A stretch of DNA of 64,000 nucleotides from Oceanispirochaeta sp. (lineage in GTDB: Bacteria > Spirochaetota > Spirochaetia > DSM-2461), in the NCBI GenBank assembly GCA_963666275.2, contig CAXXOA010000002.1:1-64000 (forward strand). The letters run 5' to 3'. Positions 1 to 16,434 of this stretch are shown here, piece by piece. A program made the translations under genes and the position numbers. Numbering within the stretch: position 1 is the stretch's first letter; each line of letters starts with the position of its first letter. Under the pieces are notes generated by a model. That model had not been told where the DNA came from. It saw nothing but the letters and a program-made list of their open reading frames with translations, and searched no databases.

Positions 1-972
1 CTGAAGGCGCAAGGATTTAAAGAGGGAACAATCCGGACAAGGAAGGCCCATCTTACCCCCTTCTTTACCTTTTTGGATGAAACTGCCGCAAAAGACATCC
101 GGGATGTAAAGAGGAGTGATATTGTCTCCTTCCTTTCCTGGCTGCAGGAGCATCCCGGAGAGAGGGGAAGAGGCTACAAGGATAGTACCCGGATGAGTAT
201 TTTCACCTCGGTGAAGAAGTTCTACCTCTGTCTGTATGAGAACAACCTGGTTCTGTCCTCTCCGGCGGAGACAGTCCGGTTCGGGAAACGGCAGGAGCGG
301 CTCAAGGAGATCTTGAGCGAGGAAGAGACTTGCCAGTTTCTGGATTCCATCGATATTCACCAGCCCCTGGGACTCCGGGACAGAGCCCTTTTCGAGCTGA
401 TCTACTCTTCCGGCCTCCGGTCCTCCGAAGCGGCCCGTCTGGATGTAAAAGACTACGATCCGGACAGCCGGTTATTGTGGATCCACCAGAGCAAGTTCTC
501 CAAGGACCGGCGGGTGCCCGTTACCAAGGCGGCCGCCTGGTTTCTGGACAAGTATCTGGAAGGCGTGAAGGCATCCCACCGGCCTCTTATCCTTTCCGGA
601 GGCTACCGGTTTACTCACGGAGGGATCAACAAACGGTTCAAACTGCTATTGGAGCGTGCCGGTCTCTATCGAGAGGGCTTAAGCCCTCATTCCCTACGGC
701 ATGGCTGCGCTTCCCAGCTGTTGGCCCACGGAGCGGAGATCCGGTATGTTCAGGAGCTTTTGGGGCATGAATCGGTGGAAACCACGGTTGTGTACTCCCG
801 ACAGAGCGAAGAGAATATCAAGGCTTCCTACCGGCAGTTCCATCCCAGGGAGAATTTCCATTTCGCCGAAGTAACAGATTCTTACCTTGATTCACTGGAA
901 AACCTGGTTCGGGACAGCTTGAGGCAGAGAGAGAAGAATAGAAAAGCGCTTGCCCGTAAGATAGGTAAATGA
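1..972 (+). CDS. Tyrosine recombinase (XerD-like), 5' end lies before the window; identical to 9164-10135
   Basis: Catalytic motifs YSSGLRSSE, K, HSLRH, LGH, VVYS; translated ORF identical to that of the downstream copy. Confidence 0.93.
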   Translation: MKAQGFKEGTIRTRKAHLTPFFTFLDETAAKDIRDVKRSDIVSFLSWLQEHPGERGRGYKDSTRMSIFTSVKKFYLCLYENNLVLSSPAETVRFGKRQERLKEILSEEETCQFLDSIDIHQPLGLRDRALFELIYSSGLRSSEAARLDVKDYDPDSRLLWIHQSKFSKDRRVPVTKAAAWFLDKYLEGVKASHRPLILSGGYRFTHGGINKRFKLLLERAGLYREGLSPHSLRHGCASQLLAHGAEIRYVQELLGHESVETTVVYSRQSEENIKASYRQFHPRENFHFAEVTDSYLDSLENLVRDSLRQREKNRKALARKIGK

Positions 973-1606
973 TAGTTTATTAACAGATTATGGTTGCTAC
1001 CCGGGGAATTCCAGTTTCAATGCCTCCTTGCAGATCTCCTTTTTACAACGATTTAGGGGAAGAGGGTGATTATTACTTTAATGCCAGGTGGTATGATGCT
1101 TCTACCGGTAGATTCATCTCAGAAGACCCCGCCCGGGACGGGCAAAATTGGTATGTTTACGTTTCAAACAATCCGCTAAAATACATTGACCCAACCGGTA
1201 TGATGAGTGATTCAGCCGCTTTTGCAGCAGCACAAACAAGACTGGATATTGAAAACTCTGATAGTCAATATGGTCATACTTATATTCGTGATGAATATGA
1301 TTACAAAGATTTCTCTAAAATGCTTGAACATATAGAAAAGAGCAGTGAATTAAAAATCGAGAACAATGAAAAAAGAATAGATGAATTAAAAGGTCAAATA
1401 CAATCAACTGAAATAGAAAAAAGATCTAAAGCTGCTGAGAATTTTGGAGATATTGCTAAGCTGGGAATTACATTTGATAATGGATCTTTTCAAGATATTG
1501 CTGAATTCGTTGCTGATTCTCAGTTGGAACCTCTAGATTATAATTTAGATTTGTCAGAGGAGAATAAAAAGATTTTTGGAAGAATTAAAGAAATTTTCAA
1601 TTTGAA
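1..1606 (+). repeat. Direct repeat copy 1 (matches 9164-10769, offset 9163)
   Basis: Same start sequence CTGAAGGCGCAAGG at 1 and 9164; identical translated ORFs; match ends at ...TTTCAATTTGAA. Confidence 0.95.
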
Positions 1607-1763
1607 AAAAGAAAACAATATGTATGAAAATGGAGCAGAAGGCGCTCGTGACTTATTAGATGATATCCATGAAAATCAAAATACAGAAAAAAATAATTCT
1701 GAAAAAGATGATTCTAATAATGAATCAGGAGAGGATAAGAGTGAGGATGATGTGAATGAATAA
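990..1763 (+). CDS. Orphan Rhs repeat-associated core plus variable C-terminal (toxin) tip
   Basis: YYFNARWYDASTGRFISEDP...NWYVYVSNNPLKYIDPTG core, then a 187-aa AT-rich tip; no upstream YD repeats; start codon uncertain. Confidence 0.88.
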   Translation: MVATRGIPVSMPPCRSPFYNDLGEEGDYYFNARWYDASTGRFISEDPARDGQNWYVYVSNNPLKYIDPTGMMSDSAAFAAAQTRLDIENSDSQYGHTYIRDEYDYKDFSKMLEHIEKSSELKIENNEKRIDELKGQIQSTEIEKRSKAAENFGDIAKLGITFDNGSFQDIAEFVADSQLEPLDYNLDLSEENKKIFGRIKEIFNLKKENNMYENGAEGARDLLDDIHENQNTEKNNSEKDDSNNESGEDKSEDDVNE

Positions 1764-2280
1764 TTTAAAAAACAGCAATTCGCAGATTAATAAAAATGAA
1801 ATTGGGAATAAATTTAAATTTGTATTAATTACATATTTTATTATTCAATTTACGCTGCTTATCTTCGAAGTAATTGGTATTTATCAGATTAATGAAGCTA
1901 TTCTTTCTATTACTGTTCTTTTCCTGATAGGAAAACTACTTGTAATAACGGGAGTAATAGTGCTTCTTTCTTTTCTTTTTTTTAATAGAAATGAAGCCTT
2001 TAAATTTGTGTGTAGCGTAATTCTAATTGCTAGAATTATATATGAAGTAATTGCATTTCTGATAAGTAACTTTTTATTGGGTTCAGGAAGTCTTTATTTA
2101 CTATTGTTTTGGTATTTGACCATTTTTATAACATTACTAGTATTAAGGAATCGTATTCATTTCAAAAAAATTACAGTCCATATTATTAAATCTATTTTAT
2201 TTGTTCTTAGTTTTATTGTTCTTTCAAATCTAGGTTTTCTATTAATAAGAAGTATTCTACAATTTGTTAAAAGCTCATAA
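1756..2280 (+). CDS. Putative immunity protein, multi-pass membrane
   Basis: Overlaps the Rhs-tip stop codon, AT-rich, about 4-5 hydrophobic segments. Confidence 0.6.
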   Translation: MNNLKNSNSQINKNEIGNKFKFVLITYFIIQFTLLIFEVIGIYQINEAILSITVLFLIGKLLVITGVIVLLSFLFFNRNEAFKFVCSVILIARIIYEVIAFLISNFLLGSGSLYLLLFWYLTIFITLLVLRNRIHFKKITVHIIKSILFVLSFIVLSNLGFLLIRSILQFVKSS

Positions 2281-2333
2281 CACCATTGTTCTGCTGTGAC
2301 CGAAGGGAAACGGCAGCAACATACTTGTTATGA
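2275..2333. repeat. 59-bp attC-like imperfect palindrome, copy 1
   Basis: TCATAAC-N5-TGTTCTGCTGT...ACGGCAGCAACA-N5-GTTATGA; left end overlaps the stop codon of the upstream gene. Confidence 0.65.
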
Positions 2334-2409
2334 CAGGATTTATTTTTCGCCGGAATGACTTTTCTCACGTGAAGAAGTTTTTCCGGCAGTAATCGCAGGC
2401 CGAACCTCC

Positions 2410-2472
2410 GCCGTCGTGGCTCCGGTTCTGATCAGAAAATCCGTTATCTGCAGCTGCCGTCCCTGGCAGCTG
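2410..2472. repeat. REP-like hairpin doublet
   Basis: GCCGTCGTGGC at 2410 and CAGCTGCC-GTCCCT-GGCAGCTG at 2451-2472. Confidence 0.4.
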
Positions 2473-2529
2473 TCCGCATTCGCCATATAACGAATTCTCT
2501 GTTCACCTGCTTTTAGTGGTAGAGTTATA

Positions 2530-2613
2530 GCAAGTGAACAGAACGAGATCTTATCGGAAGCGTGCTTAGGATAAGATTTGTTCTGTTTAACGACCGCAGG
2601 GAGTGGGCTTGCG
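2530..2613 (-). repeat. Long hairpin repeat, copy A (inverted relative to copies B and C)
   Basis: AACAGAA..ATCTTATC...GATAAGAT..TTCTGTT stem; its reverse complement aligns to 11693-11782 and 16339-16419. Confidence 0.8.
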
Positions 2614-2777
2614 TTTACTGCCTATGGAGCTTTTTCTTCGGAATCAGCTCTGGCCGGGACCGGTGTTTCATTGTTTCATTCCCGTTATTACTCGATAAAT
2701 TCCGAAAAATTCCGTTTTGAAAATCTTTCCTCTACCGATTGAAGCGTAAAAGCTTTTGTGTTGGCGCCTCTCTGTCT

Positions 2778-2806
2778 TTGCAAAATTGTAGTTACAATAG
2801 TATAAT
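2778..2806 (+). promoter_or_regulatory. Sigma70 promoter with palindromic operator for brnTA
   Basis: TTGCAA-N17-TATAAT; spacer contains ATTGTA-GT-TACAAT; ATG lies 6 nt after the -10 box. Confidence 0.75.
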
Positions 2807-2812
2807 TATATT

Positions 2813-3100
2813 ATGACCTTTGAATGGGATGAAGAAAAAGACATAATCAACCGAAAGAAACACGGATTGTCATTCAAAGACGCCAAGTATGTTTTTGCCG
2901 ACCCGTTTGCCCTGGTTCGTGAGGATTACACGGATTCAGAGCCCCGTCAGCAAATTATGGGGCATATCGGCGGCATTCTGCTGGTGCTTGTGGTTTACAC
3001 TATGAGAAATCAGCAGGATGAAGACGTTTTCAGAATAATATCTGCCAGAAAAGCGACAACGGCAGAGAGGAGGAAGTATGAAGCAGGAAAATGGTTTTAG
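2813..3100 (+). CDS. brnT: BrnT family toxin
   Basis: FEWDEEK..N..KHGLSF and RIISARKAT motifs. Confidence 0.9.
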   Translation: MTFEWDEEKDIINRKKHGLSFKDAKYVFADPFALVREDYTDSEPRQQIMGHIGGILLVLVVYTMRNQQDEDVFRIISARKATTAERRKYEAGKWF

Positions 3101-3374
3101 CCCTATGGATGAAGACACAAAGGCAAGACTCGCCAAGCTTGCCGAATTACCCGACTCTGAAATTGATACATCAGACATAAAAGAGTGGTCTGATGAGGAT
3201 TTTTCCAGGGCCGTCCCTTTTCACGATATTTACAAGCCCAGGAAAGAGCAGATAACCACCCGAATCGACGCGGACATTCTTCTCTGGCTGAAAAGTCATG
3301 GCAAAGGGTATCAGACTTTGCTGAATGATTTACTTCGAAAAGAGATGAATATGGAATGCAGTAAGCAGGGTTAG
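3078..3374 (+). CDS. brnA: BrnA family antitoxin
   Basis: DSEIDTSDI, KEQITTRIDADIL.WLK..GKGYQT; overlaps brnT; true start may be 3105. Confidence 0.88.
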   Translation: MKQENGFSPMDEDTKARLAKLAELPDSEIDTSDIKEWSDEDFSRAVPFHDIYKPRKEQITTRIDADILLWLKSHGKGYQTLLNDLLRKEMNMECSKQG

Positions 3375-3412
3375 GTTTCTTATTTTGTAATAGCCGGATA
3401 TCGAAAGAATAT

Positions 3413-3805
3413 CTATTTGGATTGATTTTCCTTTAGTTCATTCATGGCTCTCAAATCCTTGATATGTTCAAGGATTTTTTTTTGGTCTGCCGGTGGGAGT
3501 TCTTCCAGTTCTTTCAGGCGTTTTGTGATAGTGAGATTCTGTTTTCCAAGGTTTGATCCATCAAGGCCAAGAATTTTATCAGATGAAACATTCATAGCCA
3601 GTGCAAACCTTATGATCATCTCATCATTTAAATGGAGTCTTCCAATTTCATAATCAGTTACAAGAGTTCGTTTGATACCGATTTTGTCGGCCAACTCTTT
3701 TTGAGACAATCCTTGCTGTTTTCTAATATTTGCTATTCTCTTCCCAATGTTGTTATCGTCCTTATTTTGAATAGGCGGGAGTTCAACGGTCATTTTTCTT
3801 GGCAT
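3413..3805 (-). CDS. XRE-family HTH repressor
   Basis: IGKRIANIRKQQGLSQKELADKIGI...VTDYEIG HTH. Confidence 0.9.
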   Translation of the reverse strand: MPRKMTVELPPIQNKDDNNIGKRIANIRKQQGLSQKELADKIGIKRTLVTDYEIGRLHLNDEMIIRFALAMNVSSDKILGLDGSNLGKQNLTITKRLKELEELPPADQKKILEHIKDLRAMNELKENQSK

Positions 3806-3838
3806 GGTTATTATTTTAAACGATGTTTCTATTATTGC

Positions 3839-3867
3839 TTGACATAGGTGTTATGATAACACATAAT
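3839..3867 (+). promoter_or_regulatory. Sigma70 promoter with perfect 15-bp operator palindrome
   Basis: TTGACA-N17-CATAAT; GTGTTAT-G-ATAACAC at 3848-3862. Confidence 0.75.
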
Positions 3868-4071
3868 AGTTTTTGTAAAAAGTGTTACTATTTTCTTGAC
3901 ACACTTTTTGAAATATTGCCGTCGGCAATAAAAAAGCCCGTTTCCCGTACGTCGCCAAACATTCGGAAACAGGCTTAAAACCACATAGGAGTAGAACTCC
4001 ATGCACCAACAATTCTATCACAATTTACCTTCCCCGCAAATGCCGTTCTGCTCCTGGATTTGGAGTAAAGA

Positions 4072-4356
4072 ATGGAAATCCGCACCAGCGACCTGTACGA
4101 GGCCGCCTACTACCTGACTAAAGGGGTAACGCCCCACCTGGTTACCTGCCGCCTTCTGGCCGGGAACGTCACCAAAGATATCATCTGCGACTTCTACTTC
4201 GAAGGAGAAGTCATTCCTCATCTTCAAAGCGACTTTTTGAGAAGTGAAGCGGTTGTCAATCTGGTTCTCTTCCGCCGTTGTTACGGAGAGATCAACAACT
4301 ACGCCAACAACGCCAAGCGGGACTACCGGAAAAGCATGAAAGGGGGCCGCCAGTGA
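4072..4356 (+). CDS. Small hypothetical protein (DUF5659-like N-terminus)
   Basis: RBS GGAG upstream; TSDLYEAAYYL motif; stop overlaps the next start. Confidence 0.65.
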   Translation: MEIRTSDLYEAAYYLTKGVTPHLVTCRLLAGNVTKDIICDFYFEGEVIPHLQSDFLRSEAVVNLVLFRRCYGEINNYANNAKRDYRKSMKGGRQ

Positions 4357-4613
4357 AAGACAGCCTCATAACAGCCAACCTGGCCGAAGTCGCCTACCTC
4401 CTGGACCAGAAGCATAGCCTTGTCGATGTGAATCTTTGCATGGGAAACCTGGGAGCGGAAGAGCTGCTCTTTACCCTGGAAGGAGAGAACATTACCCGGG
4501 ACCGTAAACTTTTTCTGGGTACCTGCCGGACTCCTTTGAAGAAGATCCCCGAGACTCTGGAAGTGATCCGGAACCTCCTCTGGAAGAAGGAAGAGGAGGC
4601 CCAGTGTGACTAA
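4353..4613 (+). CDS. Small hypothetical protein, possible paralogue of the upstream ORF
   Basis: GTG overlaps the upstream TGA; TANLAEVAYLL resembles TSDLYEAAYYL. Confidence 0.6.
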   Translation: MKDSLITANLAEVAYLLDQKHSLVDVNLCMGNLGAEELLFTLEGENITRDRKLFLGTCRTPLKKIPETLEVIRNLLWKKEEEAQCD

Positions 4614-5361
4614 GATCGTATTTACCAACCAGAAAGGCGGGGTCGGCAAAACCACCATGACAAGAGAACTGGGCTGTTACCTGGCCCATGATAAAGGGCT
4701 GAAAACCCTTCTGGTAGACTGTGACAGCCAAGGCAACCTTTCCAGAAGTTTCTTCGACCAGCCGGGAAAAGGACTGTACGAGGCCATTACAGAAGATGAA
4801 ATTCACGTTCAAAGTGTCAGTGAGAATCTTGAGATCCTTTCCGGATCGATCTATCTCAGCCTGCTGGAAAAACAGCTTGTGGGAGAGTTCGACGGCTATG
4901 TACGGTTTAAGGAGCTTTTCGAACGGGAGGAGTTCGAATCCTACGATTTTATCCTGATGGATACTCCCCCTTCCCTGGGAATCCTCACGGGCAATGCCCT
5001 TGTAGCCGCCGATCACCTTGTGATGCCCATTACAGCCAGTCAGTACGCCCTGCAGGGAGCTTCGGACCTTCTGGAAACCATGGAGAAGATCAGGCGGAGC
5101 CTGAACCCGACTCTTTACGCCCTGGGAGTCGTCCTTAACAGCTACAACCCGGTTACCCTGATCGGCCGGGAGCTGAAAGCCGAACTGACCGGGTTCTTCG
5201 GAGGAACCTGTTTTGATACGGTGATCAGCCGTTCTATCCGGATCGAGGAAGCCATTGCCGAGAGGAAGGGCCTGGTCCAGCTGTCCGGGAACCAGTGGAA
5301 AAGGTCGGCGGAGGAAGTGAGGGCCCTGGGGAATGAACTTCTATCCCGGTGCGGTCTATGA
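4606..5361 (+). CDS. parA: ParA/Soj family ATPase
   Basis: NQKGGVGKTT deviant Walker A, DCDSQGNLS, ILMDTPPSLG. Confidence 0.92.
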   Translation: MTKIVFTNQKGGVGKTTMTRELGCYLAHDKGLKTLLVDCDSQGNLSRSFFDQPGKGLYEAITEDEIHVQSVSENLEILSGSIYLSLLEKQLVGEFDGYVRFKELFEREEFESYDFILMDTPPSLGILTGNALVAADHLVMPITASQYALQGASDLLETMEKIRRSLNPTLYALGVVLNSYNPVTLIGRELKAELTGFFGGTCFDTVISRSIRIEEAIAERKGLVQLSGNQWKRSAEEVRALGNELLSRCGL

Positions 5362-8030
5362 CTTCTTCAAAGCTGAAAGGCAGGAGTCCTTTGAAGGGGG
5401 CTTCCCTGCTGGACGAGTTTGAAAAAGACCGGATCAAGTCTCAAACCGATATTGTCAGCGTAATTACCTCCTACGGTATTGCCCTGGAGAAAAAAGGCAC
5501 TTCCTTTATGGGGCTGTGCCCCTTTCATGAGGACAAGAATCCTTCCCTTTCGGTGGATCAATCCAAGGGGCTTTTTCACTGTTTCGGCTGCGGGGCCGGA
5601 GGGGATGTCTTCGACTTCGTGATGAAGAAGCAGGGCGTGGAGTTTAAAGAAGCCCTGGCCATACTCAAGGGAGGAGACCTTTCTCCCAAACCGGCAGCCC
5701 CTGTAAAGTCGAAGGAGGCGCAGCCTTCAAAGACTGTCACGGACAAGAGAGATTCCCCTGCCATTAATGAAAGCCCTCTGGGGGACTTTGAAGATGCGGC
5801 AGACTACTATCACCGTCAGCTCTCCCATCCGGAAGCAGTTTCCTACCTGAAAAAACGGGGGATTTATGCTCCCGAGCTCCTTGGAAGATTAAAGGTCGGC
5901 TACTGCCCCGGAGACCTGAAAGACAAACTCTCAGAATCCCGGTTTCAGGAACTGAAAGAGACAGGCCTCTTTAATGAAAAGAACCTTGAAACCTTCCGGG
6001 ACTGCATCGTCTTTCCCCTTTACTCTTCTGACGGGAAGATCCAAAGATTCTATGGCAGGAAGATAAATGAAAGATCCAGGGTAAAACACCTTTATTTGAA
6101 AGGGCCGCATAGAGGCCTGTTCAATCACCAGGCATTCAAGGTTTACCCTGACCGGATGATCCTGGCTGAAAGCGTGATCGATGCCTTTTCGCTGATGATT
6201 TTGGGCCTGGAAAACGTCAGTTGCATCTACGGTACCAACGGAGTGACCAGCCACCTCATGGAAGCTTTGGAAGAGAACCGTACAAAGGAGGTTATCCTTG
6301 CCTTCGACAGTGACAATCCGGGTCAGGAAGCTGCAGAAGGTACAGCCAAAGAACTGCTGAAATCCGGCTACTCGGTGAGAACTATTTTCCCTCCGGAAAA
6401 AGACTGGAATGAGTCGCTGACCCATCTTAAAAAAGAAGAAATCCATAAACTCATAGATGCCGCCCCTCTGCAGACCCCAAAACCGAAAGAGAAGCCCTTT
6501 GCTTCACGATCTGAAGGTAAATACCTGTTTCATTGTTCTTCCCTGGATTATCGGATCATCGGTGTAAAGGAAGGATTCGTCAGCTCTTTGAAGGTGAATG
6601 TCCGCTGTCAGAAACCGGAGGATGATTCTGTAAAATTCATAGATAACGTGGATCTCTTCTCCGCCCGGAGCCGGACGCTTTTCTCTGTTGCTGTGGCCCG
6701 CCGGTTCGGTGAGGAATCCGCCAGGATAGAAAAGGATCTATTAGACATCCTGGACTACCTGGAGGAGCAGGCCAGCCTGCTTTCATCGCCCTCCGCGGAT
6801 GTCCGGGCACTGACTGCGGAAGAGGAAGAGGCAGGTCTGGCCCTTTTAAAAGATCCAAACTTGTTTGGCAGGATTGTGAAGGACACGGAAGCTCTGGGGT
6901 ATGTGGGAGAAGAGGAAAACAAGATCCTTATGTACCTGGCCGCTTCCTCCCGTCTGATGGCCGACCCTGTGAGCGTAATCGTCATTTCCCAGTCCGCCGC
7001 CGGGAAAAGCTTTCTGATCGATACGGTAAAAAAGCTGATGCCCGAAGAGGATGTGATTTCCATGACCAGCCTATCCGACCAGGCCCTGAACTACCTTCCC
7101 GATGAAGCATTATTGCACAAGTTCCTAGTCATGGGAGAGGCGGTCCACTCGGAGAGTGTAGACCACCAGATGAGGGAGATGTTATCCGGAAAGGAACTGT
7201 CCCGGCTTGTGACCACCAAGGACGAGAAGACCGGACGGATGACCAGCAAGCTGGTACGGAAAAAAGTCATTGTATCCGCCGTGATGTCTTCCACTTCGAC
7301 AGAGATCAACCCGGAGAACGCTTCCCGCTGCTTTGTGGTGAACACCGATGAGAGCCGGGAGCAAACCAGGGAGATCCACCGGAGGCAGAGGGAGAAGTAC
7401 ACCCTGGAAGCCTACCGGAAAAAGGAAGAAGAGATCCCGGAGATTATTAAAACTCATCAGGCTGCCCAAAGGCTCCTGAAGAACCGGGTGATTGTGAATC
7501 CTTTCGCCGGGGAGCTGGATTTTCCCTCTTCTATGATGAGATCGAGGCGGGACCATGAGAGGTTTGTAGACCTCATTTCCTGTGTGTGTTTCCTCCGGCA
7601 GTACCAGAAACAGGAGAAGAACGATCAGGGGAAGCATTACATAGAGTGCGACCTGGAGGATTACAAGGTAGCCTACCGGATCATGAAGACCCTTTTGTCT
7701 TCCACTTTAACGACCTTGCCTCGTTCAGCTGTCATTTTGTATGAGGAGCTTCGGGGACTTCTCAAAAGCAAGGCGGAGAAGGACGGGCTTTTTATTACCG
7801 ATATCTGGGTAACCCAACGGGAGGTCCGGGAGGTCTCCGGGTTCTCTCATGAGTTGATCAAGAAAAACATGAGACTCCTGACAGAGTACGAATACATCCG
7901 GTGCAAAGGATCGGGCCGGGGCATGACCAGGCGTTACGGACTGGCTGCAGATTCTGACCTTGTTCTCTTCGACGACTCGGTGATTCCCTCACCGGGGAAA
8001 CTGGGGACGAAGCGGGGACAAAATGACTGA
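5349..8030 (+). CDS. DnaG-like primase (CHC2 zinc finger, TOPRIM) fused to a P-loop ATPase
   Basis: CPFHEDKNPS...CFGC, ESVIDA and AFDSD TOPRIM motifs, SQSAAGKS P-loop; start may be 5358. Confidence 0.88.
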   Translation: MRSMTSSKLKGRSPLKGASLLDEFEKDRIKSQTDIVSVITSYGIALEKKGTSFMGLCPFHEDKNPSLSVDQSKGLFHCFGCGAGGDVFDFVMKKQGVEFKEALAILKGGDLSPKPAAPVKSKEAQPSKTVTDKRDSPAINESPLGDFEDAADYYHRQLSHPEAVSYLKKRGIYAPELLGRLKVGYCPGDLKDKLSESRFQELKETGLFNEKNLETFRDCIVFPLYSSDGKIQRFYGRKINERSRVKHLYLKGPHRGLFNHQAFKVYPDRMILAESVIDAFSLMILGLENVSCIYGTNGVTSHLMEALEENRTKEVILAFDSDNPGQEAAEGTAKELLKSGYSVRTIFPPEKDWNESLTHLKKEEIHKLIDAAPLQTPKPKEKPFASRSEGKYLFHCSSLDYRIIGVKEGFVSSLKVNVRCQKPEDDSVKFIDNVDLFSARSRTLFSVAVARRFGEESARIEKDLLDILDYLEEQASLLSSPSADVRALTAEEEEAGLALLKDPNLFGRIVKDTEALGYVGEEENKILMYLAASSRLMADPVSVIVISQSAAGKSFLIDTVKKLMPEEDVISMTSLSDQALNYLPDEALLHKFLVMGEAVHSESVDHQMREMLSGKELSRLVTTKDEKTGRMTSKLVRKKVIVSAVMSSTSTEINPENASRCFVVNTDESREQTREIHRRQREKYTLEAYRKKEEEIPEIIKTHQAAQRLLKNRVIVNPFAGELDFPSSMMRSRRDHERFVDLISCVCFLRQYQKQEKNDQGKHYIECDLEDYKVAYRIMKTLLSSTLTTLPRSAVILYEELRGLLKSKAEKDGLFITDIWVTQREVREVSGFSHELIKKNMRLLTEYEYIRCKGSGRGMTRRYGLAADSDLVLFDDSVIPSPGKLGTKRGQND

Positions 8031-8165
8031 GAAACGTAAATCCTTATCATTTCTAAGCTTAGACGAAAGTGGGGAAACCGGGTACACGACGACTATTCAG
8101 CCTAATGTTAAATCTGGTAACGGGTTAGGAGAAAGTGGGTACAAATTGCCGGAGAAAGACAGCGC

Positions 8166-9119
8166 ATGAACATACATAAAGACCATCAAACCCTGCTGGA
8201 CAGCTACCTGGAAGAGAAAAAAGCCCTGGGAGCTTCTTCCCAGGCCATCCGGAACGCCCACAGCCGGATACCCCACTTCCTGGCCTATCTGGAAGAAGAA
8301 GGACTGATAGCCGATCAGGCGGACATCCGGACGGCCAGGGGCTACATGGCCTACCTGACGGAACGGGGAACCGAAAACGGAGAGGACTACAGGGTCAACA
8401 CCCTGGCTTCCTACCGTCAGGCAGCCAGTTCTTTCAGCCGGTGGATGAGGGATTCGGGGAAACTGGTTTCCGATCCCTTTACCGCCGTTAAACCACCCCG
8501 TGGTGAAAGGATCATCCCCCGGGATTTGCCCACCGAAAAAGAGCTGGCCCGGCTTCTCTCCCAACTGGCTGACTTCAATGCTGTTAAAGGACTGAAGGCC
8601 CGGAAAAGGCGGTACCTGACCTATGTACTGGCCGAGCTCCTCTACGCTTCGGGCCTCCGGATCAGCGAGGCAGCAGACCTTCAGGAAGAGAACCTCAACC
8701 TGGAAAGGAAAGAGATTACAGTCATTTCCGGCAAGGGAGGATTCGACCGGAAAGTTTACCTGAACGACTACGCCGCCGGTGTGTTAAGACGGTTTCTAAC
8801 CATCCGGGATGAGATCCTGACCGGCAAGAGCAACAGGAACTGTCTTTTCGGCTCCTCTTCCGATGAACTGGGGAAAGCTTTCAACCGGGATCTGAAAGAG
8901 GCCTGCCGGGAGGTGGAGATTCCTTCTCTAACCGCCCACGGGCTGAGGCACTGTCTGGGCTATCATCTTTTGAAACAGGGCTGCCCCTTACGTCAGATCC
9001 AGCAGATCCTGGGACACCGGGCCATAGGGAACACCGAGATCTACACCAAGGTGGATGTGAAAGAGGTCAAGGAGCAGTTGGACCGCTGCCATCCCCGGCA
9101 GATGAGAGAGAAGAAGTGA
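8166..9119 (+). CDS. Tyrosine recombinase (XerC-like)
   Basis: YASGLRISE, GKGG, HGLRH, LGH, EIYT. Confidence 0.93.
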   Translation: MNIHKDHQTLLDSYLEEKKALGASSQAIRNAHSRIPHFLAYLEEEGLIADQADIRTARGYMAYLTERGTENGEDYRVNTLASYRQAASSFSRWMRDSGKLVSDPFTAVKPPRGERIIPRDLPTEKELARLLSQLADFNAVKGLKARKRRYLTYVLAELLYASGLRISEAADLQEENLNLERKEITVISGKGGFDRKVYLNDYAAGVLRRFLTIRDEILTGKSNRNCLFGSSSDELGKAFNRDLKEACREVEIPSLTAHGLRHCLGYHLLKQGCPLRQIQQILGHRAIGNTEIYTKVDVKEVKEQLDRCHPRQMREKK

Positions 9120-10135
9120 AAAGGCTCTCAAGGCAGAAAGTCCTTTCCCTTTTCGCCGGATACCTGAAGGCGCAAGGATTTAAAGAGGGAACAATCCGGA
9201 CAAGGAAGGCCCATCTTACCCCCTTCTTTACCTTTTTGGATGAAACTGCCGCAAAAGACATCCGGGATGTAAAGAGGAGTGATATTGTCTCCTTCCTTTC
9301 CTGGCTGCAGGAGCATCCCGGAGAGAGGGGAAGAGGCTACAAGGATAGTACCCGGATGAGTATTTTCACCTCGGTGAAGAAGTTCTACCTCTGTCTGTAT
9401 GAGAACAACCTGGTTCTGTCCTCTCCGGCGGAGACAGTCCGGTTCGGGAAACGGCAGGAGCGGCTCAAGGAGATCTTGAGCGAGGAAGAGACTTGCCAGT
9501 TTCTGGATTCCATCGATATTCACCAGCCCCTGGGACTCCGGGACAGAGCCCTTTTCGAGCTGATCTACTCTTCCGGCCTCCGGTCCTCCGAAGCGGCCCG
9601 TCTGGATGTAAAAGACTACGATCCGGACAGCCGGTTATTGTGGATCCACCAGAGCAAGTTCTCCAAGGACCGGCGGGTGCCCGTTACCAAGGCGGCCGCC
9701 TGGTTTCTGGACAAGTATCTGGAAGGCGTGAAGGCATCCCACCGGCCTCTTATCCTTTCCGGAGGCTACCGGTTTACTCACGGAGGGATCAACAAACGGT
9801 TCAAACTGCTATTGGAGCGTGCCGGTCTCTATCGAGAGGGCTTAAGCCCTCATTCCCTACGGCATGGCTGCGCTTCCCAGCTGTTGGCCCACGGAGCGGA
9901 GATCCGGTATGTTCAGGAGCTTTTGGGGCATGAATCGGTGGAAACCACGGTTGTGTACTCCCGACAGAGCGAAGAGAATATCAAGGCTTCCTACCGGCAG
10001 TTCCATCCCAGGGAGAATTTCCATTTCGCCGAAGTAACAGATTCTTACCTTGATTCACTGGAAAACCTGGTTCGGGACAGCTTGAGGCAGAGAGAGAAGA
10101 ATAGAAAAGCGCTTGCCCGTAAGATAGGTAAATGA
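9116..10135 (+). CDS. Tyrosine recombinase (XerD-like)
   Basis: YSSGLRSSE, HSLRH, LGH, VVYS; GTGA overlap with the upstream recombinase. Confidence 0.93.
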   Translation: MKRLSRQKVLSLFAGYLKAQGFKEGTIRTRKAHLTPFFTFLDETAAKDIRDVKRSDIVSFLSWLQEHPGERGRGYKDSTRMSIFTSVKKFYLCLYENNLVLSSPAETVRFGKRQERLKEILSEEETCQFLDSIDIHQPLGLRDRALFELIYSSGLRSSEAARLDVKDYDPDSRLLWIHQSKFSKDRRVPVTKAAAWFLDKYLEGVKASHRPLILSGGYRFTHGGINKRFKLLLERAGLYREGLSPHSLRHGCASQLLAHGAEIRYVQELLGHESVETTVVYSRQSEENIKASYRQFHPRENFHFAEVTDSYLDSLENLVRDSLRQREKNRKALARKIGK

Positions 10136-10769
10136 TAGTTTATTAACAGATTATGGTTGCTACCCGGGGAATTCCAGTTTCAATGCCTCCTTGCAGATCT
10201 CCTTTTTACAACGATTTAGGGGAAGAGGGTGATTATTACTTTAATGCCAGGTGGTATGATGCTTCTACCGGTAGATTCATCTCAGAAGACCCCGCCCGGG
10301 ACGGGCAAAATTGGTATGTTTACGTTTCAAACAATCCGCTAAAATACATTGACCCAACCGGTATGATGAGTGATTCAGCCGCTTTTGCAGCAGCACAAAC
10401 AAGACTGGATATTGAAAACTCTGATAGTCAATATGGTCATACTTATATTCGTGATGAATATGATTACAAAGATTTCTCTAAAATGCTTGAACATATAGAA
10501 AAGAGCAGTGAATTAAAAATCGAGAACAATGAAAAAAGAATAGATGAATTAAAAGGTCAAATACAATCAACTGAAATAGAAAAAAGATCTAAAGCTGCTG
10601 AGAATTTTGGAGATATTGCTAAGCTGGGAATTACATTTGATAATGGATCTTTTCAAGATATTGCTGAATTCGTTGCTGATTCTCAGTTGGAACCTCTAGA
10701 TTATAATTTAGATTTGTCAGAGGAGAATAAAAAGATTTTTGGAAGAATTAAAGAAATTTTCAATTTGAA
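9164..10769 (+). repeat. Direct repeat copy 2 of 1-1606
   Basis: Identical ORF translations at offset 9163. Confidence 0.95.
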
Positions 10770-10782
10770 TGAAAGTCAATAA
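10153..10782 (+). pseudogene. Rhs core/tip copy 2, truncated
   Basis: Identical to 990-1763 up to IKEIFNL, then the frame is lost. Confidence 0.75.
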
Positions 10783-11594
10783 TCCAGATCATGTCATGAA
10801 TGATGCTTTTGAGCAGATTAGGCGCTCGTGATACTACTGCGACTGCTAGATGGGGAGGTATCCATGGTAGAAATCCAAAATACCAAAACCAACTTGGAAC
10901 GACATTCTAATAACAGATGATCATCATAGATTACTTGAATCGGGTGGTAATCTATTGAATGATCCATGATTCTCCAGATTTACCTTTAACGAATACGTCT
11001 ACAGTAAAATTCGCAGATTAATAAAAATGAACTTTGGGAATAAATTTAAATTTGTATTAATTACATATTTTATTATTCATATTTACGCTGCTTATCTTCG
11101 AAGTAATGGTATTTATCAGATTAATGAAGCTATTCTTTCTATTACTGTTCTTTTCCTGATAGGAAAACTACATTAGTCATTGATGAAGGTGAGTAGATAG
11201 TGCAATTCTTTATATTGGCGGTTTTGGATCATTCCCTATAAAAGAAGTAAAAGAGATAGATGGAAGCCTTTGAAATTTGTGTGTAGCGTAATTACTAGAG
11301 GTTGTTTAGATATTATATATGAAGTAATTGCATTTCTGATCAAGTAACACTTTTATGTGGGTTCAGGAAGATCTTGAAGGTTTACTCATTGTTTCCAACA
11401 TTTGACCATTGGATTTATAACATTAGCTAGTATTAAGGAATCAGTATTCATTTGATAAGTAATAATTACAGTACCATATTATTAAATGTCTATTTAAATT
11501 TGTTCTGGAGAAAGAATTGTTCTTTCAATGTCTAGGTTTGGAAATCTATGTGAATAAGAAGTATTCTACAATTTGTTCAAAATAATTTTCATAA
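10770..11594 (+). pseudogene. Indel-riddled copy of the Rhs-tip 3' end and immunity gene
   Basis: Colinear fragments of 1607-2280 interleaved with many short insertions; no ORF. Confidence 0.75.
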
Positions 11595-11647
11595 CACCAT
11601 TGTTCTGCTGTGACCGAAGGGAAACTGCAGCAACATGCTTGTTATGA
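11589..11647. repeat. 59-bp attC-like palindrome, copy 2
   Basis: Two substitutions relative to 2275-2333. Confidence 0.65.
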
Positions 11648-11692
11648 CAGAATTTTATTCTTTCGCCGGAGAAGTTTTTCCGGCTGAGAACC

Positions 11693-11782
11693 CGCAAGCC
11701 CGCTCCGGGAGTCGCTAAACAGAATACATCTTATAGTAAGCTCATACTTCGCTTCCGATAAGAAAGCATTCTGTTCACTTGC
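11693..11782 (+). repeat. Long hairpin repeat, copy B
   Basis: GCAAGCCCGCTCC...TAAACAGAATACATCTTAT...CTTCCGATAAGA...TTCTGTTCACTTGC. Confidence 0.8.
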
Positions 11783-11805
11783 TGATGCTGGTTCGGTTGG
11801 TAGTT

Positions 11806-11842
11806 AAAAAGCACGCAGAGCAGTAACTTTGCGTGCTTTTTT
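11806..11842. terminator. Bidirectional intrinsic terminator
   Basis: AAAAAGCACGCAGAG...CTTTGCGTGCTTTTTT. Confidence 0.7.
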
Positions 11843-12235
11843 CAGAGCTTGATTGCCTAACATATTAATAGTATTATTATAATTGTTAGGCAATTCCTAC
11901 ATGCCCGGCAACACGAGGAACATTATGAGCGTGATTAAAGACGTGATCAAAGAAGAATACAACCGCCTCAACTCTCTGGTGGAGCTTTATGACCAGAAGA
12001 TTTCTGCTTTCCCGAAAGGCTCCCTGTCCATCAAAAAGCGGAACGGACACCCTTACTGTTACCGTGCCTACCGTGACCAGGGAAAGGTGAGATTCATCTA
12101 TCTCGGCAAGCCCGACTCTCCGGAGGCCAAGGATTTTATCCGGAAAGTGGATAAATGTGAGCACCAGTGCTAAATTGCAGAAAACCACCGGAGTGAAGTT
12201 GCAGGTTCCGGCTTGAAAAAAAGGGCAGTACTCCC

Positions 12236-13534
12236 TTGAATGGTAGTTACCACAAAAACCAGATAACAAAAGGAGTACGCCCAAAAATGCTGGAGTTACT
12301 GATGCATGAAGCTCAGATGTTAAAACAACAGGGTAAGAAGATCTTTGAAATTGCCCAAGCTATTGGAAAGAGCGAAAGAATGGTTCATTACTATCTTTCA
12401 GAACCATCCCGACCAAGAAAAAAGAGAGTCTACGAAAGTAAATTAGACCCTTTCAAACCCTACATCGATACTATACTGGAGGACGATCCTTCCATCAATC
12501 GGATGGTGTTGCTCAGGAACCTGAAAAAACAGAATTACACAGGTGGAATCACTATTCTCAGAGACTATGCTGCTGTTAAATCGGCAGAAATATGTAAAAA
12601 GGCCGTTATTCGATTTGAAACAGAACCAGGTTACCAGGCCCAGGTGGATTGGAAAGAACTGGGGATGCAAATGGTAGATGGGCAGTACAGGAAACTTTAC
12701 GCCTTCACAATGGTATTCGGCTACAGCCGAGCACCCTTTGTGATTCACACCACCAGCATGGATCAAGCGACCGTTCTGATGTGTCATGTCTTAGCATTCA
12801 AATACTTTGGCGGAGTGCCAAAAGAGATCCTTTACGACAATATGAAAACGGCCTTCATCTACTCTTCTGCTGAAGAAAAATGGAAACCGAATAAACATCT
12901 GCTGTCCCTTGCCATACACTACGGATTTACTCCCCGTAGATGTCAGGTTCGCCGACCTCAGACGAAGGGGAAAGTAGAGCGGTTTATACATTTTTATGCT
13001 CATTACTTCTGGGTTGAATACAAAGGCCAAACTTTGTTCATGGATGCGTTGAATGAAACTGTTCTCAATTGGATTTCAGAGATCAGTAAAGCTGTTATCA
13101 GAGAGCTGGGAGAATCCAGGGCTGACAGGTTCCAACATGAAAAGCAATATTTAACACCGCTTCCTGCAGGGGATTTCGATTGCCGGAGGGTTCAGTCAGT
13201 CCAAGTTTCCTGCGAATCCTTGGTCCAGGTAAAATCCAATTGGTACAGCGTCCCTCCTGTTTTCATAGGAAAGACATTAACTCTGAGAATCGACCCTCTT
13301 TCCAATATGGCCGAAATAACCAATGGACAAGAAGCCGTTAGGACGTTCCTTCTTCATACGGAGGAAAGGAATCAGAGAGATTATCTGCAAGAGCACAGAG
13401 ACGCTCTGATAGAGCTCTGGTTAAAACAAAGACAGCCACGTAAAGTTCATCGCATTAGTCGGGAACCGAATGTAACAGTACGCCATCCTGGGCAGTACGA
13501 TAAACTCTTTGGCATCCAAGGAGCTGCATCATGA
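12236..13534 (+). CDS. istA: IS21 transposase
   Basis: RFETEPGYQAQVDW, LYDNMK, PQTKGKVER DDE motifs; start may be 12287. Confidence 0.95.
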   Translation: MNGSYHKNQITKGVRPKMLELLMHEAQMLKQQGKKIFEIAQAIGKSERMVHYYLSEPSRPRKKRVYESKLDPFKPYIDTILEDDPSINRMVLLRNLKKQNYTGGITILRDYAAVKSAEICKKAVIRFETEPGYQAQVDWKELGMQMVDGQYRKLYAFTMVFGYSRAPFVIHTTSMDQATVLMCHVLAFKYFGGVPKEILYDNMKTAFIYSSAEEKWKPNKHLLSLAIHYGFTPRRCQVRRPQTKGKVERFIHFYAHYFWVEYKGQTLFMDALNETVLNWISEISKAVIRELGESRADRFQHEKQYLTPLPAGDFDCRRVQSVQVSCESLVQVKSNWYSVPPVFIGKTLTLRIDPLSNMAEITNGQEAVRTFLLHTEERNQRDYLQEHRDALIELWLKQRQPRKVHRISREPNVTVRHPGQYDKLFGIQGAAS

Positions 13535-14292
13535 ATGAGCGGTGTCAAATGATTACCTCAAGGATGGAGGAACTGGGCCTTTCATTTATGTCTGCCGGTT
13601 TTGAGAGTTTTTTAGCCAGCCAGGTAAATCAGGAAGCTCCATTAATGGAGGCAATCGGTGAGTTGATTGATCTTGAGCTGATACCCCGGAAAGAACGTAT
13701 GGCGAAAACCAGACTGAAAGTTTCTGGTATTCCACACAGCAAGACACTTGAAAATTTTGATTTGAGTTGGCCGAAAGGCGGTCTGACTCAGAAGCAGTTT
13801 AATGAAATTGCTACCCTGACATTTATAGAACGTAGAGAAAATATCATTCTTCTTGGGCCAAGTGGTCTTGGAAAGACCCATCTGATGACAGCTCTTGGTC
13901 AAAAAGCCTGTTTGAATGGATACACTGCTTACTATATCAGTTGTCTGGATCTCTTGGAGCGATTACAGCGATCTCGAGATCAGGGAAAGTTAAAACAAAA
14001 GCTGACGTGGTTTGGGAAACCCCATGTATTGCTTATTGATGAAGTTGGCTATGAGAATCTCAATTCTGAGCAGGCGGCCCTGTTTTTCCAGCTTATTAAT
14101 ACCAGATATGAGCATGGATCTATTATCCTTACTTCAAACAAGCCTTTTGGGAAATGGGGAGAAATTATGGCAGATGACGCGGTAGCCACTGCTACACTGG
14201 ATAGGCTATTACATCACTCTCATGTGATTAGTCTAAATGGGGATTCCTACCGCATGAAAGATCGTATGAAAATAGGAGTCGTTGACTTCTAA
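13531..14292 (+). CDS. istB: IS21 helper ATPase
   Basis: GPSGLGKT, LLIDEVGY, LDRLLHH, GDSYR. Confidence 0.95.
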   Translation: MNERCQMITSRMEELGLSFMSAGFESFLASQVNQEAPLMEAIGELIDLELIPRKERMAKTRLKVSGIPHSKTLENFDLSWPKGGLTQKQFNEIATLTFIERRENIILLGPSGLGKTHLMTALGQKACLNGYTAYYISCLDLLERLQRSRDQGKLKQKLTWFGKPHVLLIDEVGYENLNSEQAALFFQLINTRYEHGSIILTSNKPFGKWGEIMADDAVATATLDRLLHHSHVISLNGDSYRMKDRMKIGVVDF

Positions 14293-14500
14293 AAAATTTG
14301 ACGGAACTCTGCAATTTGATTTCGGGGATATACTGCAACTTGAGTCCGGTGTTGACAGATAAACGGCATAAGTACGAAGAGAAGAGGAAAAAGTCTCTGG
14401 AAAATCTGAAAGAAGTGAAGGTATTGCTCCGTGTTATCAAGAAAACATCCTTCTAAGAAATAGAATCCTTATCAATTTGATAATTATTATCGCTTGGCTA

Positions 14501-14529
14501 TTGCGATTTAACCCTAATGGGAGTATATT
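14501..14529 (+). promoter_or_regulatory. Sigma70 promoter facing the 3' end of the DUF3800 gene
   Basis: TTGCGA-N17-TATATT with no plus-strand ORF downstream. Confidence 0.55.
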
Positions 14530-14534
14530 TTAGT

Positions 14535-14607
14535 TAGACCCTGTTTTGCCGAAGTCCAACGCTGCGCGTCGGATCCGTAGTAGGCCAAGACGGGGTTAAT
14601 TTTTTTT
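14535..14607 (+). ncRNA. Candidate DUF3800-associated structured RNA
   Basis: ACCCTGTTTTG/CAAGACGGGGT stem with G-U pairs that work only on the + strand, inner TCC/GGA and ACGC/GCGT helices, T-run after the stem, promoter before it. Confidence 0.55.
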
Positions 14608-15462
14608 CTTATGGTTTTTTGTGAAAGACGGTTCAAATCTTGATTGTCTTGGAATAAACATCCAATGGGCATAGGGTAGATCAGCCCTGTCCGGATATTG
14701 GCTTGTTCCGGCTGTACTTGTTCCTATATTGAAATTAGGCTTTATTTTACAAATATGATTACGGATATGTTTGTATAGTTCTTCTTTCGCTATTGTTCTC
14801 TTCCCTCGTACCCGCTTCCCTTCAGGTTTTATTTTGTGTCTGTCATTCAACCTGAATGCCATAGATCCCAATACGACATCCAGGCACTGAAGTATAATAT
14901 GTTCATGTGAACGTGCTTCGTTTATATTTTCCCTTTTAATCTGTAATCCTGAACCTTTGAATTTAAAATCCTGCAAATTCATAATGTGATCTTTGAATAA
15001 TTCAGATTTCTCTTTCTTATCCGGAAACTGGTCGAAGAAAAACCGGAGATTCATAGAACTGTGGACAGGTTTTAGTTTGTCCAGTCCAAAGGCATTTTTA
15101 ATGAATTGATAATACAGAAGAAAGTACTGGTGTTCTTTTTGCTCGCTAGTCAAATGAATTGGAGTATGAGCATTCTGTCTGAACATGATCCTGACTTTTA
15201 GTTTCTCAGCAAATATTTCTTCAAAGAAGGCATCAATGATTTTCTTATATCCATCTAACCAATCTGGCGTAACCTTAGACCATTTTATTTCACTTCTAAT
15301 TCCCGCTTGCCCCCTGGTATTCTCCAATTTTTTTTGTATCCTCAGGTATTGAGAGGCACCGACAAGAACTCCACCATAGAAATTGGAGTAAAATTCACCT
15401 TTTGTGATTGATTCGTCACTGAATAAAATAAGTTCTTTCTCAGAGGAATAACTGTACGCCAC
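14596..15462 (-). CDS. DUF3800 domain protein
   Basis: N-terminal FSDES (DE motif) and C-terminal QCLD (QxxD). Confidence 0.8.
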   Translation of the reverse strand: MAYSYSSEKELILFSDESITKGEFYSNFYGGVLVGASQYLRIQKKLENTRGQAGIRSEIKWSKVTPDWLDGYKKIIDAFFEEIFAEKLKVRIMFRQNAHTPIHLTSEQKEHQYFLLYYQFIKNAFGLDKLKPVHSSMNLRFFFDQFPDKKEKSELFKDHIMNLQDFKFKGSGLQIKRENINEARSHEHIILQCLDVVLGSMAFRLNDRHKIKPEGKRVRGKRTIAKEELYKHIRNHICKIKPNFNIGTSTAGTSQYPDRADLPYAHWMFIPRQSRFEPSFTKNHKKKN

Positions 15463-15528
15463 AATAAAACAATATTACAGCAATATGACAATAATTACTA
15501 TAAAGATCTTAACCCCAGCTATTTAAAC

Positions 15529-15587
15529 TCACAAAATCCTTATTCTGCTTTGACCGTAGGGAATCAATAGCAAATTTCTTGTTTTGG
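15529..15587. repeat. 59-bp attC-like palindrome, degenerate copy 3
   Basis: Ungapped alignment to copy 1 (TTCTGCT.TGACCG.AGGGAA...AGCAA....CTTGTT). Confidence 0.55.
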
Positions 15588-15644
15588 CAGATTATTATTT
15601 TCCGCCAGAATGCCATTTTACGTTGAAAAGTTTTTTCAGCTTCC

Positions 15645-15673
15645 TTGATCGCTATACGTCATTGGCGTATACT
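15645..15673 (+). promoter_or_regulatory. Sigma70 promoter with palindromic operator
   Basis: TTGATC-N17-TATACT; TATACG-N7-CGTATA; GTG lies 6 nt after the -10 box. Confidence 0.65.
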
Positions 15674-15679
15674 TTATCT

Positions 15680-15981
15680 GTGAAGTTTGAATGGGATTCG
15701 GTAAAGAACGAATTAAACAAACAAAAACATGGAATATCATTCGACGAGGCTTTGAGCTGTTTAATGTGCCATCTCATTTGATTCTTGTACAATACGATTT
15801 TAAACACAGCCTTACAGAAGACCGGATAATCTCGATCGGCCCAATCAACAGAGGTATAGTGATTGTTATTTCCACTGAAAGGGATTAAGGGGATGTGATT
15901 CGGCTGAGAAGTGCGAGATTCGCAACTACTTCCGAAAAGGGATTGTATGAAAAGACAATCAAAGGTGAAGCATATGAATGA
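15680..15981 (+). pseudogene. BrnT-like toxin with a frameshift and an in-frame stop
   Basis: KFEWDSVKNELNKQKHGISFDEA, frameshift near 15750, TAA at 15886, then VIRLRSARFAT. Confidence 0.8.
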
Positions 15982-16267: not shown

Positions 16268-16338
16268 TCTCTTGCATTCAGAGAGATTTCAAGGAAAGTA
16301 ACTTTTTCTGTTGAAGCAGTTTTTCCTACTGAGAACCT

Positions 16339-16419
16339 GCAAGCTCGCTCCGCAGCTGCTAAACAGAATACATCTTATCGTAAGTGAACTTCCGATAAGA
16401 TGGCATTCTATTCACTTGC
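16339..16419 (+). repeat. Long hairpin repeat, copy C
   Basis: GCAAGCTCGCTCC...TAAACAGAATACATCTTATCG...CTTCCGATAAGATG...TTCACTTGC. Confidence 0.8.
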
Positions 16420-16434
16420 GGGGCTGGTTCACCG

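What the first reader, a model, noticed from the sequence alone, without database searches (positions are those of the whole stretch)
1..10782. Tandem dual-recombinase/primase element that appears to deliver Rhs toxin tips
Seen: a 9,163-bp repeat unit carries a repressor switch, an orphan ParA, a primase-ATPase and two intact tyrosine recombinases. About 100 bp after the second recombinase stop, an Rhs core begins abruptly, followed by a toxin tip and a putative immunity gene. The unit has no capsid, relaxase or conjugation genes. Known: Rhs toxins diversify by exchanging the region after the conserved core (DPxG). Inference: the element excises, replicates as a circle and integrates at the conserved rhs core. 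That would fuse its tip to a resident rhs gene and push older tips downstream, making it a dedicated toxin-swapping element that can amplify in tandem.
Basis: partly seen in the sequence, partly recalled or inferred. Interest (0 to 1): 0.88.

Follow-up and report, generated by a model that had tools for sequence, protein, structure and literature searches.

The report
Mobile element that swaps toxin tips
This is a small mobile DNA element that inserts itself at the joint between the delivery body and the variable tip of bacterial competition-toxin genes, installing its own tip and pushing the old one aside; this genome, however, has no intact toxin gene for it to re-arm.

Summary
The 9,163-bp unit is real (window 1071-10233): Rhs core tail, tip, membrane gene, BrnTA, Xre, ParA, DnaG primase fused to an MCM-like helicase, and two intact tyrosine recombinases. 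Two corrections apply. The element's own tip sits at its LEFT end. This genome has no full-length rhs: the left end (contig C3) follows a LysM gene. The 10770-11670 stretch is probably a consensus mosaic, and tandem versus circle is unresolved.

An Rhs core and tip follow 43 of 62 homologous recombinase ends (motif control: 7 of 2000). One genome carries near-identical copies at three loci; the two with intact left ends share one tip, while all three downstream tips differ. Three spirochaete genomes show in-frame fusion to 3,400-3,600-aa Rhs. Crossovers map to 7-14 bp. Distant single-recombinase cousins sit at Rhs and CdiA junctions in Proteobacteria, and an E. coli empty/filled pair shows the old tip displaced behind the element.

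The neighbourhood was noted in 2007 and a tip-carrying circle predicted in 2009; nine searches found no description of this element. Recombinase activity, circles, toxicity and transfer route are untested.

The parts
1..972 (+). 3' part of the second recombinase of an upstream copy (or of a circular form), at the contig start
   Evidence: identical to 9164-10135; window = start of G000:C2
973..1070 (+). element arm (P arm, 98 bp) before the junction; holds an in-frame ATG 27 codons before the core
   Evidence: absent from the true left end on C3
1071..1082 (+). junction inside the Rhs core (codons YYFN); left end of the 9,163-bp unit; crossover inferred within the first 3-8 nt
   Evidence: C3 identity starts exactly here; bounds from relatives
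1071..1763 (+). Rhs core tail (to DPTG) plus 186-aa acidic, helical tip A carried by the element; toxin activity not shown
   Evidence: TIGR03696; no tip homologue; tip GC 0.30 vs backbone 0.53
1756..2280 (+). putative immunity gene, 174 aa, five hydrophobic segments, overlapping the tip stop
   Evidence: only self-hit among 640 candidates
2275..2341 (.). 67-bp hairpin after the immunity gene, attC-like in shape; recurs at 11589 and in relatives' cargo regions
   Evidence: (z -3.39 top strand)
2813..3374 (+). BrnT/BrnA toxin-antitoxin cargo
   Evidence: Pfam PF04365, PF14384
3413..3805 (-). Xre/RstR-like repressor, divergent from the replication-recombination operon
4072..4613 (+). two small ORFs; the first is conserved across the family; weak DUF5659 resemblance only
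   Evidence: 2 of 12 proteins scanned hit PF18903 at E 0.1-0.16, below cut-off
4606..5361 (+). ParA-family ATPase without ParB
5349..8030 (+). CHC2-toprim (DnaG-type) primase fused to an MCM-like AAA+ helicase
   Evidence: model pLDDT 77.8; top Foldseek hits are MCM subunits, best E 2.9e-12
8166..9119 (+). tyrosine recombinase 1, catalytic residues intact
9116..10135 (+). tyrosine recombinase 2, catalytic residues intact, 27% identical to recombinase 1
10136..10245 (+). P arm and right-hand junction (attR-like)
10234..11670 (+). final core-tip-immunity cassette; identical to tip A up to 10769, then a gapped mosaic; probably a different, displaced cassette overwritten during consensus building
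   Evidence: expected word share 0.909 if the mosaic is absent from the runs, 0.91 observed in 3 of 3 holding runs
11671..16936 (.). backbone-less cargo of an older insertion: 96-aa ORF, IS21 (istA/istB), DUF3800, HTH antitoxin-like gene, RelE/RelB
   Evidence: 11671-11900 is 94-96% identical to cargo regions in G409

Best explanation
A small integrative element (repressor, ParA, primase-MCM helicase, tyrosine recombinase pair) whose attachment site lies inside the conserved Rhs core. Its left arm carries the rest of the core, a tip, an immunity gene and TA cargo.

Shown by comparison: insertion fuses the element's tip in frame to whatever lies upstream, and leaves the previous tip and immunity gene behind the recombinases. 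Repeated insertion at the regenerated core builds tandem arrays. Arm-plus-tip modules without a backbone exist, as orphan cassettes.

Inferred: the recombinases catalyse this through a circle, the primase-helicase replicates it, and Xre keeps it silent. In this genome it sits at a core-like site after a LysM gene and re-arms nothing, because no full-length rhs is present.
For: Family-wide association: 43 of 62 homologous last-recombinase ends have an Rhs core and tip within 1.6 kb (38 by motif, 5 more by tblastn); the motif control gave 7 of 2000.

Tip travels with the element: G408 has the same 9,157-bp element with the same left tip at two loci with unrelated left flanks (99.99% identical). 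A third copy is cut by a contig end, and all three downstream tips differ.

Short crossover: downstream cores are only 73-83% identical to the element's own core, and the switch falls within the first 3-8 nt, which argues against extended homology.

In-frame fusion: 3,580-, 3,443- and 3,390-aa frames at left ends in G404, G403 and G422; RHS_repeat confirmed for all three, for G404 on its last 1,978 aa.

Distant cousins: Aureibacter has an 8-bp overlap and an 8,169-bp tandem. In E. coli, the empty allele (Ec-U9-1) carries on its intact rhs the tip and immunity gene that lie behind the last xerC in SCU-113, with a 14-bp shared junction. The same backbone follows CdiA/TpsA tips.
Against: No full-length rhs in G000 or G402. 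19 of 62 ends show no Rhs core in the sequence held. The Leptospira-like copies have ParA/ParB after the recombinases, and the three such regions were left out of that count. Junction position differs between lineages. No conserved inverted-repeat binding site was found across lineages. The two small circular records could be homologous loop-outs or collapsed tandems: the Shigella one equals one repeat unit of an E. coli array. No empty/filled pair was found within the window's own lineage, and the E. coli cousin has one recombinase and about 33% primase identity. Tip toxicity is not shown. No transfer genes are present.
Confidence: 0.75

Rival explanations
1. Same mechanism, no dedicated weapon role: a selfish island uses rhs cores as a safe, repeated landing site and carries a replacement 3' end, as tRNA-targeting islands do. 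Tip exchange is a by-product. (Compatible with the best explanation's chemistry; differs in purpose.)
For: The element persists in G000 and at three loci in G402/G408 with no full-length rhs. It carries TA addiction cargo. Tip A has no known toxin domain.
Against: The replacement end is not a copy of the old one but a different tip with its own downstream gene, kept in frame across phyla and across Rhs and CdiA scaffolds.
Confidence: 0.35
2. Homologous recombination moves a core-tip circle (Jackson 2009 model); the recombinases serve only dimer resolution or are hitch-hikers.
For: Some lineages share 60-100 codons of core on both sides of the element. The Shigella circle joins between backbone copies and holds a 482-bp core segment.
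Against: Shared sequence at the switch point is 8 bp, 14 bp or under 15 bp, with 73-83% identity beyond it in G408.
Confidence: 0.1
3. Narrower rival, about this locus only: the tandem in the window is an assembly product of one integrated copy plus a circular or concatemeric form, not two chromosomal copies.
For: The assembly breaks inside the element on both C2 and C3, and 10770-11670 looks like a consensus mosaic.
Against: Identical tandem copies occur in other assemblies: 9,800 bp in G422, 8,169 bp in Aureibacter and 8,394 bp in Enterobacter. These could share the same artefact.
Confidence: 0.4

Closest known systems
Prim-Hel/cHTH/SymE neighbourhoods near RHS and haemagglutinin genes (Kawano et al. 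2007, PMC1891008; two passages seen)
   Same: DnaG-type primase fused to an MCM-like AAA+ helicase, with a cI-type regulator, in mobile islands beside RHS/haemagglutinin genes
   Different: The passages seen name no integrase or recombinase (0 occurrences), attachment site or tip exchange. The window's version has ParA and two recombinases and no SymE.
C-terminal displacement model for rhs (Jackson et al. 2009, PMC2935791; 12 passages seen) and cdi orphan arrays (Ruhe et al. 2016, PMC4927057; 5 passages seen)
   Same: An incoming tip displaces the incumbent downstream through a single crossover with a circle.
   Different: [quoted passage not shown] Ruhe suggests site-specific recombination without naming a vehicle. 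Here a self-contained element with its own recombinases and replication gene fits the role.
PICMI phage satellites (PMC10803314; 12 passages seen)
   Same: Small, integrase plus regulator plus primase, no capsid genes
   Different: No AlpA, a different primase family, no fis site; several copies per genome here versus never more than one PICMI.
Gene-restoring integrative islands (tRNA/tmRNA islands, PMC4383910, listing and abstract start only; SCCmec, PMC7581432, listing and abstract start only; SCCmec recombinase details recalled)
   Same: Integration splits a target gene and the element supplies a 3' end; SCC elements also pair two recombinases with replication genes (recalled).
   Different: The supplied 3' end encodes a different variable domain; tyrosine rather than serine recombinases.
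XerC/D-like recombinases beside polyimmunity loci (Zhang et al. 2012, PMC3482391; two passages seen); rAID arrays (recalled)
   Same: A tyrosine recombinase is linked to accumulation of conflict modules.
   Different: Those are immunity arrays; 'primase' has 0 occurrences in the 300,000 characters held, and no fusion to a toxin scaffold is described in the passages seen.

Membership tests
Rhs polymorphic toxin locus | Rhs-associated core ending in PxxxxDPxG | tested here: met
   TIGR03696 55.3 bits vs cut-off 32.5
Rhs polymorphic toxin locus | full-length YD/RHS-repeat body fused to the tip | tested here: not met
   G000: longest core frame 450 aa, no PF05593 match; met in relatives G403, G404, G422
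Rhs polymorphic toxin locus | toxic tip neutralised by the adjacent gene | not testable with these tools
   no family, homologue or confident fold
Tyrosine-integrase integrative element | intact catalytic R-K-H-R-H-Y set | tested here: met
   both recombinases
Tyrosine-integrase integrative element | short shared overlap at both ends; empty and filled alleles | tested here: inconclusive
   shared core start at both ends in G000 and relatives; empty/filled pair only for the E. coli cousin
Tyrosine-integrase integrative element | excised circle formed by the recombinases | tested here: inconclusive
   no read-level data for this genome; two small circular records of cousins have other explanations
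ICE / IME | relaxase and/or type IV secretion genes | tested here: not met
PICMI | int + alpA + prim, integrated at fis | tested here: not met
   definition; no AlpA hit; left flank is a LysM gene
Prophage / PICI | virion or packaging genes; presence among viral records | tested here: not met
   PHROGs; no match in 50,697 phage records; 0 of 58 pattern hits confirmed in IMG/VR
Integron | integron integrase next to attI and an attC array | tested here: not met
   element recombinases score 89 and 103 bits vs cut-off 265; a true IntI lies elsewhere (C1:1063760) with no array detected nearby

The most novel reading that the evidence does not exclude
A cross-phylum, so far unnamed toxin-exchange system. 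Self-replicating elements have retargeted their recombinases, lineage by lineage, to the conserved joint of Rhs, CdiA and other polymorphic proteins. They are a main source of orphan tip arrays, and the backbone-less arm-plus-tip modules are cassettes mobilised in trans, like integron cassettes. In some lineages the arm also gives the displaced tip a new start or export signal.
Probability: 0.4. Interest if true: 0.93.

Novelty: new variant of a known kind. Interest (0 to 1): 0.82.

Why it matters
How Rhs and CDI toxins acquire new tips and accumulate orphans has been open since 2009, when an episomal tip-carrying circle was predicted without a known integrase. This family supplies a concrete candidate with defined ends, enzymes and an empty/filled pair. 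A cousin occurs in 56 of 5,426 complete E. coli genomes, so the mechanism can be tested with reporter substrates in laboratory strains. It also offers recombinases that recognise short protein-coding targets and keep the reading frame.

Tried and rejected
Full-length rhs at the left end or elsewhere in G000: not found.

Tip A function: Pfam, NCBIfam and PHROGs gave the core only; the Atlas gave no usable hit; no longer homologue among 1,056 candidates; the single-sequence model was too poor to search.

An inverted copy of the core in the P arm is seen in the window's lineage only, with 3 mismatches in 14, and is not general; rejected as a family feature.

The true sequence of the last cassette was not found in the genome or in fetched loci. 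No read-level test of tandem versus circle was obtained.

The K-12 rhsE region was fetched as a candidate empty allele but not aligned; Ec-U9-1 and A34 were found instead. Phage and viral collections gave no match. Run X4 (share 0.00) was not used as evidence.

Earlier scan notes: nothing shown in 5 look-ups. Passages of PMC10210955 and PMC11278526 held nothing on this element. No complex prediction was sent, since a recombinase pair would probably pass by likeness to solved structures.
Full report
OBSERVATION. The window is the first 64 kb of contig C2 of a 5.27-Mb, three-contig genome. Bases 1-1606 equal 9164-10769 exactly. The unit encodes an Rhs core tail with a 186-aa tip, a 174-aa hydrophobic protein, BrnT/BrnA, a divergent Xre repressor, two small ORFs, ParA, a CHC2-toprim primase and two tyrosine recombinases. 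Both recombinases keep the full catalytic set and are 27% identical to each other. The primase's C-terminal half was modelled at pLDDT 77.8, and its best structural matches are MCM helicase subunits. No capsid, relaxase or conjugation family passed. The closest named relatives are labelled Oceanispirochaeta (91-94% primase identity), so this is a spirochaete element.

THE ENDS IN THIS GENOME. Contig C3:1-6141, reversed, equals window 1071-7211, so C3 holds the true left end. It is a LysM gene, a terminator and about 20 bp, then the core starting at codons YYFN. In 6 of 9 genus relatives the LysM gene is followed by genes found at window 18.4-21 kb, so C3 and C2 join through this island. There is no full-length rhs here or elsewhere: five core hits, longest frame 450 aa, and no RHS_repeat match, in a genome 97% complete. 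The unit therefore runs 1071-10233, tip first and recombinases last.

THE RIGHT END. The last cassette equals tip A to 10769 and then becomes an insertion-rich mosaic. If that mosaic were absent from the sequencing runs, 0.909 of the 31-mers of 2300-11900 would be held; 3 of 3 holding runs show 0.91 (one sample, one study). This is indirect. It suggests a different, older cassette overwritten by tip-A reads. The DNA just behind it matches cargo regions of element copies in G409 at 94-96%, fitting an older insertion that lost its backbone. Whether the repeat is two chromosomal copies or one copy plus a circle cannot be told without reads.

THE FAMILY. The helicase half hit 30 of 401 phylum genomes and gave 33 genome and 80 metagenome loci, the latter being the best 80 of 182. 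Gene order is strongly conserved. I took 64 last-recombinase ends with at least 400 bp downstream, leaving out three Leptospira-type regions where ParA/ParB follows. Of these, 40 had the core-end motif plus a tip within 1.6 kb, two of them the window's own. Five more had tblastn core hits, giving 43 of 62 outside the window. The same motif test hit 7 of 2000 random genome windows. These loci are not independent. Of the other 19, several show variable ORF pairs starting at non-Rhs motifs, and some show only TA-type cargo in the sequence held. The junction position is fixed within a lineage but differs between lineages.

DIRECTION AND PRECISION. G408 carries the element at three loci. Two copies are 99.99% identical over 9,157 bp including the left tip, with unrelated left flanks; the third is cut by a contig end. 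The tips after the recombinases differ in all three. The tip thus travels on the left arm, and the right-hand tip belongs to the target. Left junctions differ at nt 3 and right junctions (in G409) at nt 8, and downstream cores are only 73-83% identical to the element's, so the switch lies in a few bases. Left ends are fused in frame to 3,580-, 3,443- and 3,390-aa RHS-repeat proteins in G404, G403 and G422. G422 has two identical 9,800-bp copies, then a different tip. Other left ends have only 267-489 aa of open frame before the core hit, or short remnants after host genes. G402, the same coordinates as G408 and counted once, has no core frame above 330 aa. Orphan tips preceded by the element's arm but no backbone occur in G424 and G409.

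DISTANT COUSINS. The helicase half matches 37 plasmid records and no phage record. In Aureibacter, a full rhs is followed by two identical 8,169-bp two-recombinase units and a different tip, with an 8-bp overlap. Single-recombinase versions follow CdiA/TpsA tips and an FG-GAP Rhs. In E. coli the cousin is in 56 of 5,426 genomes, median four copies. Strain Ec-U9-1 has an intact rhs ending in the tip and immunity gene that in SCU-113 sit behind the last xerC, the two alleles sharing 14 bp at the DPIG codons. That is direct comparative evidence of displacement, though for a relative with about 33% primase identity. Two small circular records (8,758 and 11,289 bp) carry arm-core joins. The first equals one repeat unit of the E. 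coli array, so it does not prove site-specific excision.

MECHANISM. Shown by comparison: element boundaries, tip on the left arm, in-frame fusion, displacement, multi-locus and tandem occurrence. Inferred from family knowledge: recombinase catalysis through a circle, replication by the primase-helicase, repression by Xre, maintenance by TA pairs. Unknown: why two recombinases, the role of ParA, tip toxicity, and the route between cells. Hitch-hiking on plasmids is possible, as 9 of the 37 records are typed conjugative or mobilisable. In this genome the element can at most give immunity and addiction.

PRIOR KNOWLEDGE. Kawano 2007 drew the primase-MCM/SymE neighbourhoods next to RHS and haemagglutinin genes (passages). 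Jackson 2009 proposed displacement by an episomal circle through homologous recombination (passages). Ruhe 2016 suggested site-specific recombination at cdi loci (passages). Zhang 2012 noted XerC/D genes near polyimmunity loci (passages). PICMI criteria (passages) are not met. Nine full-text searches listed no paper describing this element. The library omits most subscription papers, only listings were seen for most hits, and no supplements were read; those of Zhang 2012 may list such neighbourhoods.

VERDICT. A real, widespread and apparently unnamed integrative element that targets the toxin core/tip joint. Novelty: new variant of a known kind (a new family of integrase islands). Interest 0.82.

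Noticed in passing
window 2275-2341, 11589-11655, 15529-15595; G000:C1:1485974-1486046: A 67-bp hairpin starting at the immunity gene's stop, shaped like an integron attC (resemblance recalled). It recurs in relatives' cargo regions, and the genome has an integron integrase at C1:1063760 with no array detected nearby.
   Followed up: partly
window 2529-2613, 11693-11783, 16339-16419: A second palindromic repeat of 80-90 bp (z -4.69), found in this genome only in the cargo regions; also matched in G421 and G409.
   Followed up: partly
window 990-1070; G424 arms: The P arm holds an in-frame ATG 26-27 codons before the core in two lineages whose arms are otherwise dissimilar; it could restart displaced tips.
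   Followed up: partly
L185:15178-16041, 31966-32820: In the Enterobacter CdiA version, the element arm supplies a lipoprotein-signal-like N-terminus fused at VENN to the displaced tips (annotated 'adhesin').
   Followed up: partly
G424 region positions 69344 and 70818; L166:1030-1300: Orphan tips preceded by the element's P arm (in L166 also by the last codons of recombinase 2) but with no backbone.
   Followed up: partly
L002:9900-13516 (G000:C1 about 1.79 Mb): Two truncated rhs cores beside a prophage tail region; the first breaks off just after the same YYFNA junction.
   Followed up: partly
L003:11300-13859: Orphan core-tip-immunity cassette after the V-ATPase K gene, starting at the same junction, followed by a transposase-like ORF.
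   Followed up: partly
L001:6142-6207; L174, L175: The host sequence before the left junction resembles the post-LysM spacer of relatives, suggesting insertion at a chance core-like site. A degenerate core-like stretch near window 16937-16952 may mark the island's right edge (seen by eye, weak).
   Followed up: partly
L191; G061, G114, G354 regions: Leptospira-type copies place ParA/ParB after the recombinases and form 12-18 kb tandems; their target was not worked out.
   Followed up: no
G281:C5, G289:C11/C17, L013; L088, L096, L111, L114: Backbones followed by variable ORF pairs that begin at shared non-Rhs motifs, possibly other polymorphic protein families; no Pfam hit for the three such ORFs scanned (L096, L111, L130).
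   Followed up: partly
window 17059-18264: This trpB lies between the island and the genes that directly follow LysM in relatives; in 8 relatives it is 45-110 kb from LysM.
   Followed up: partly
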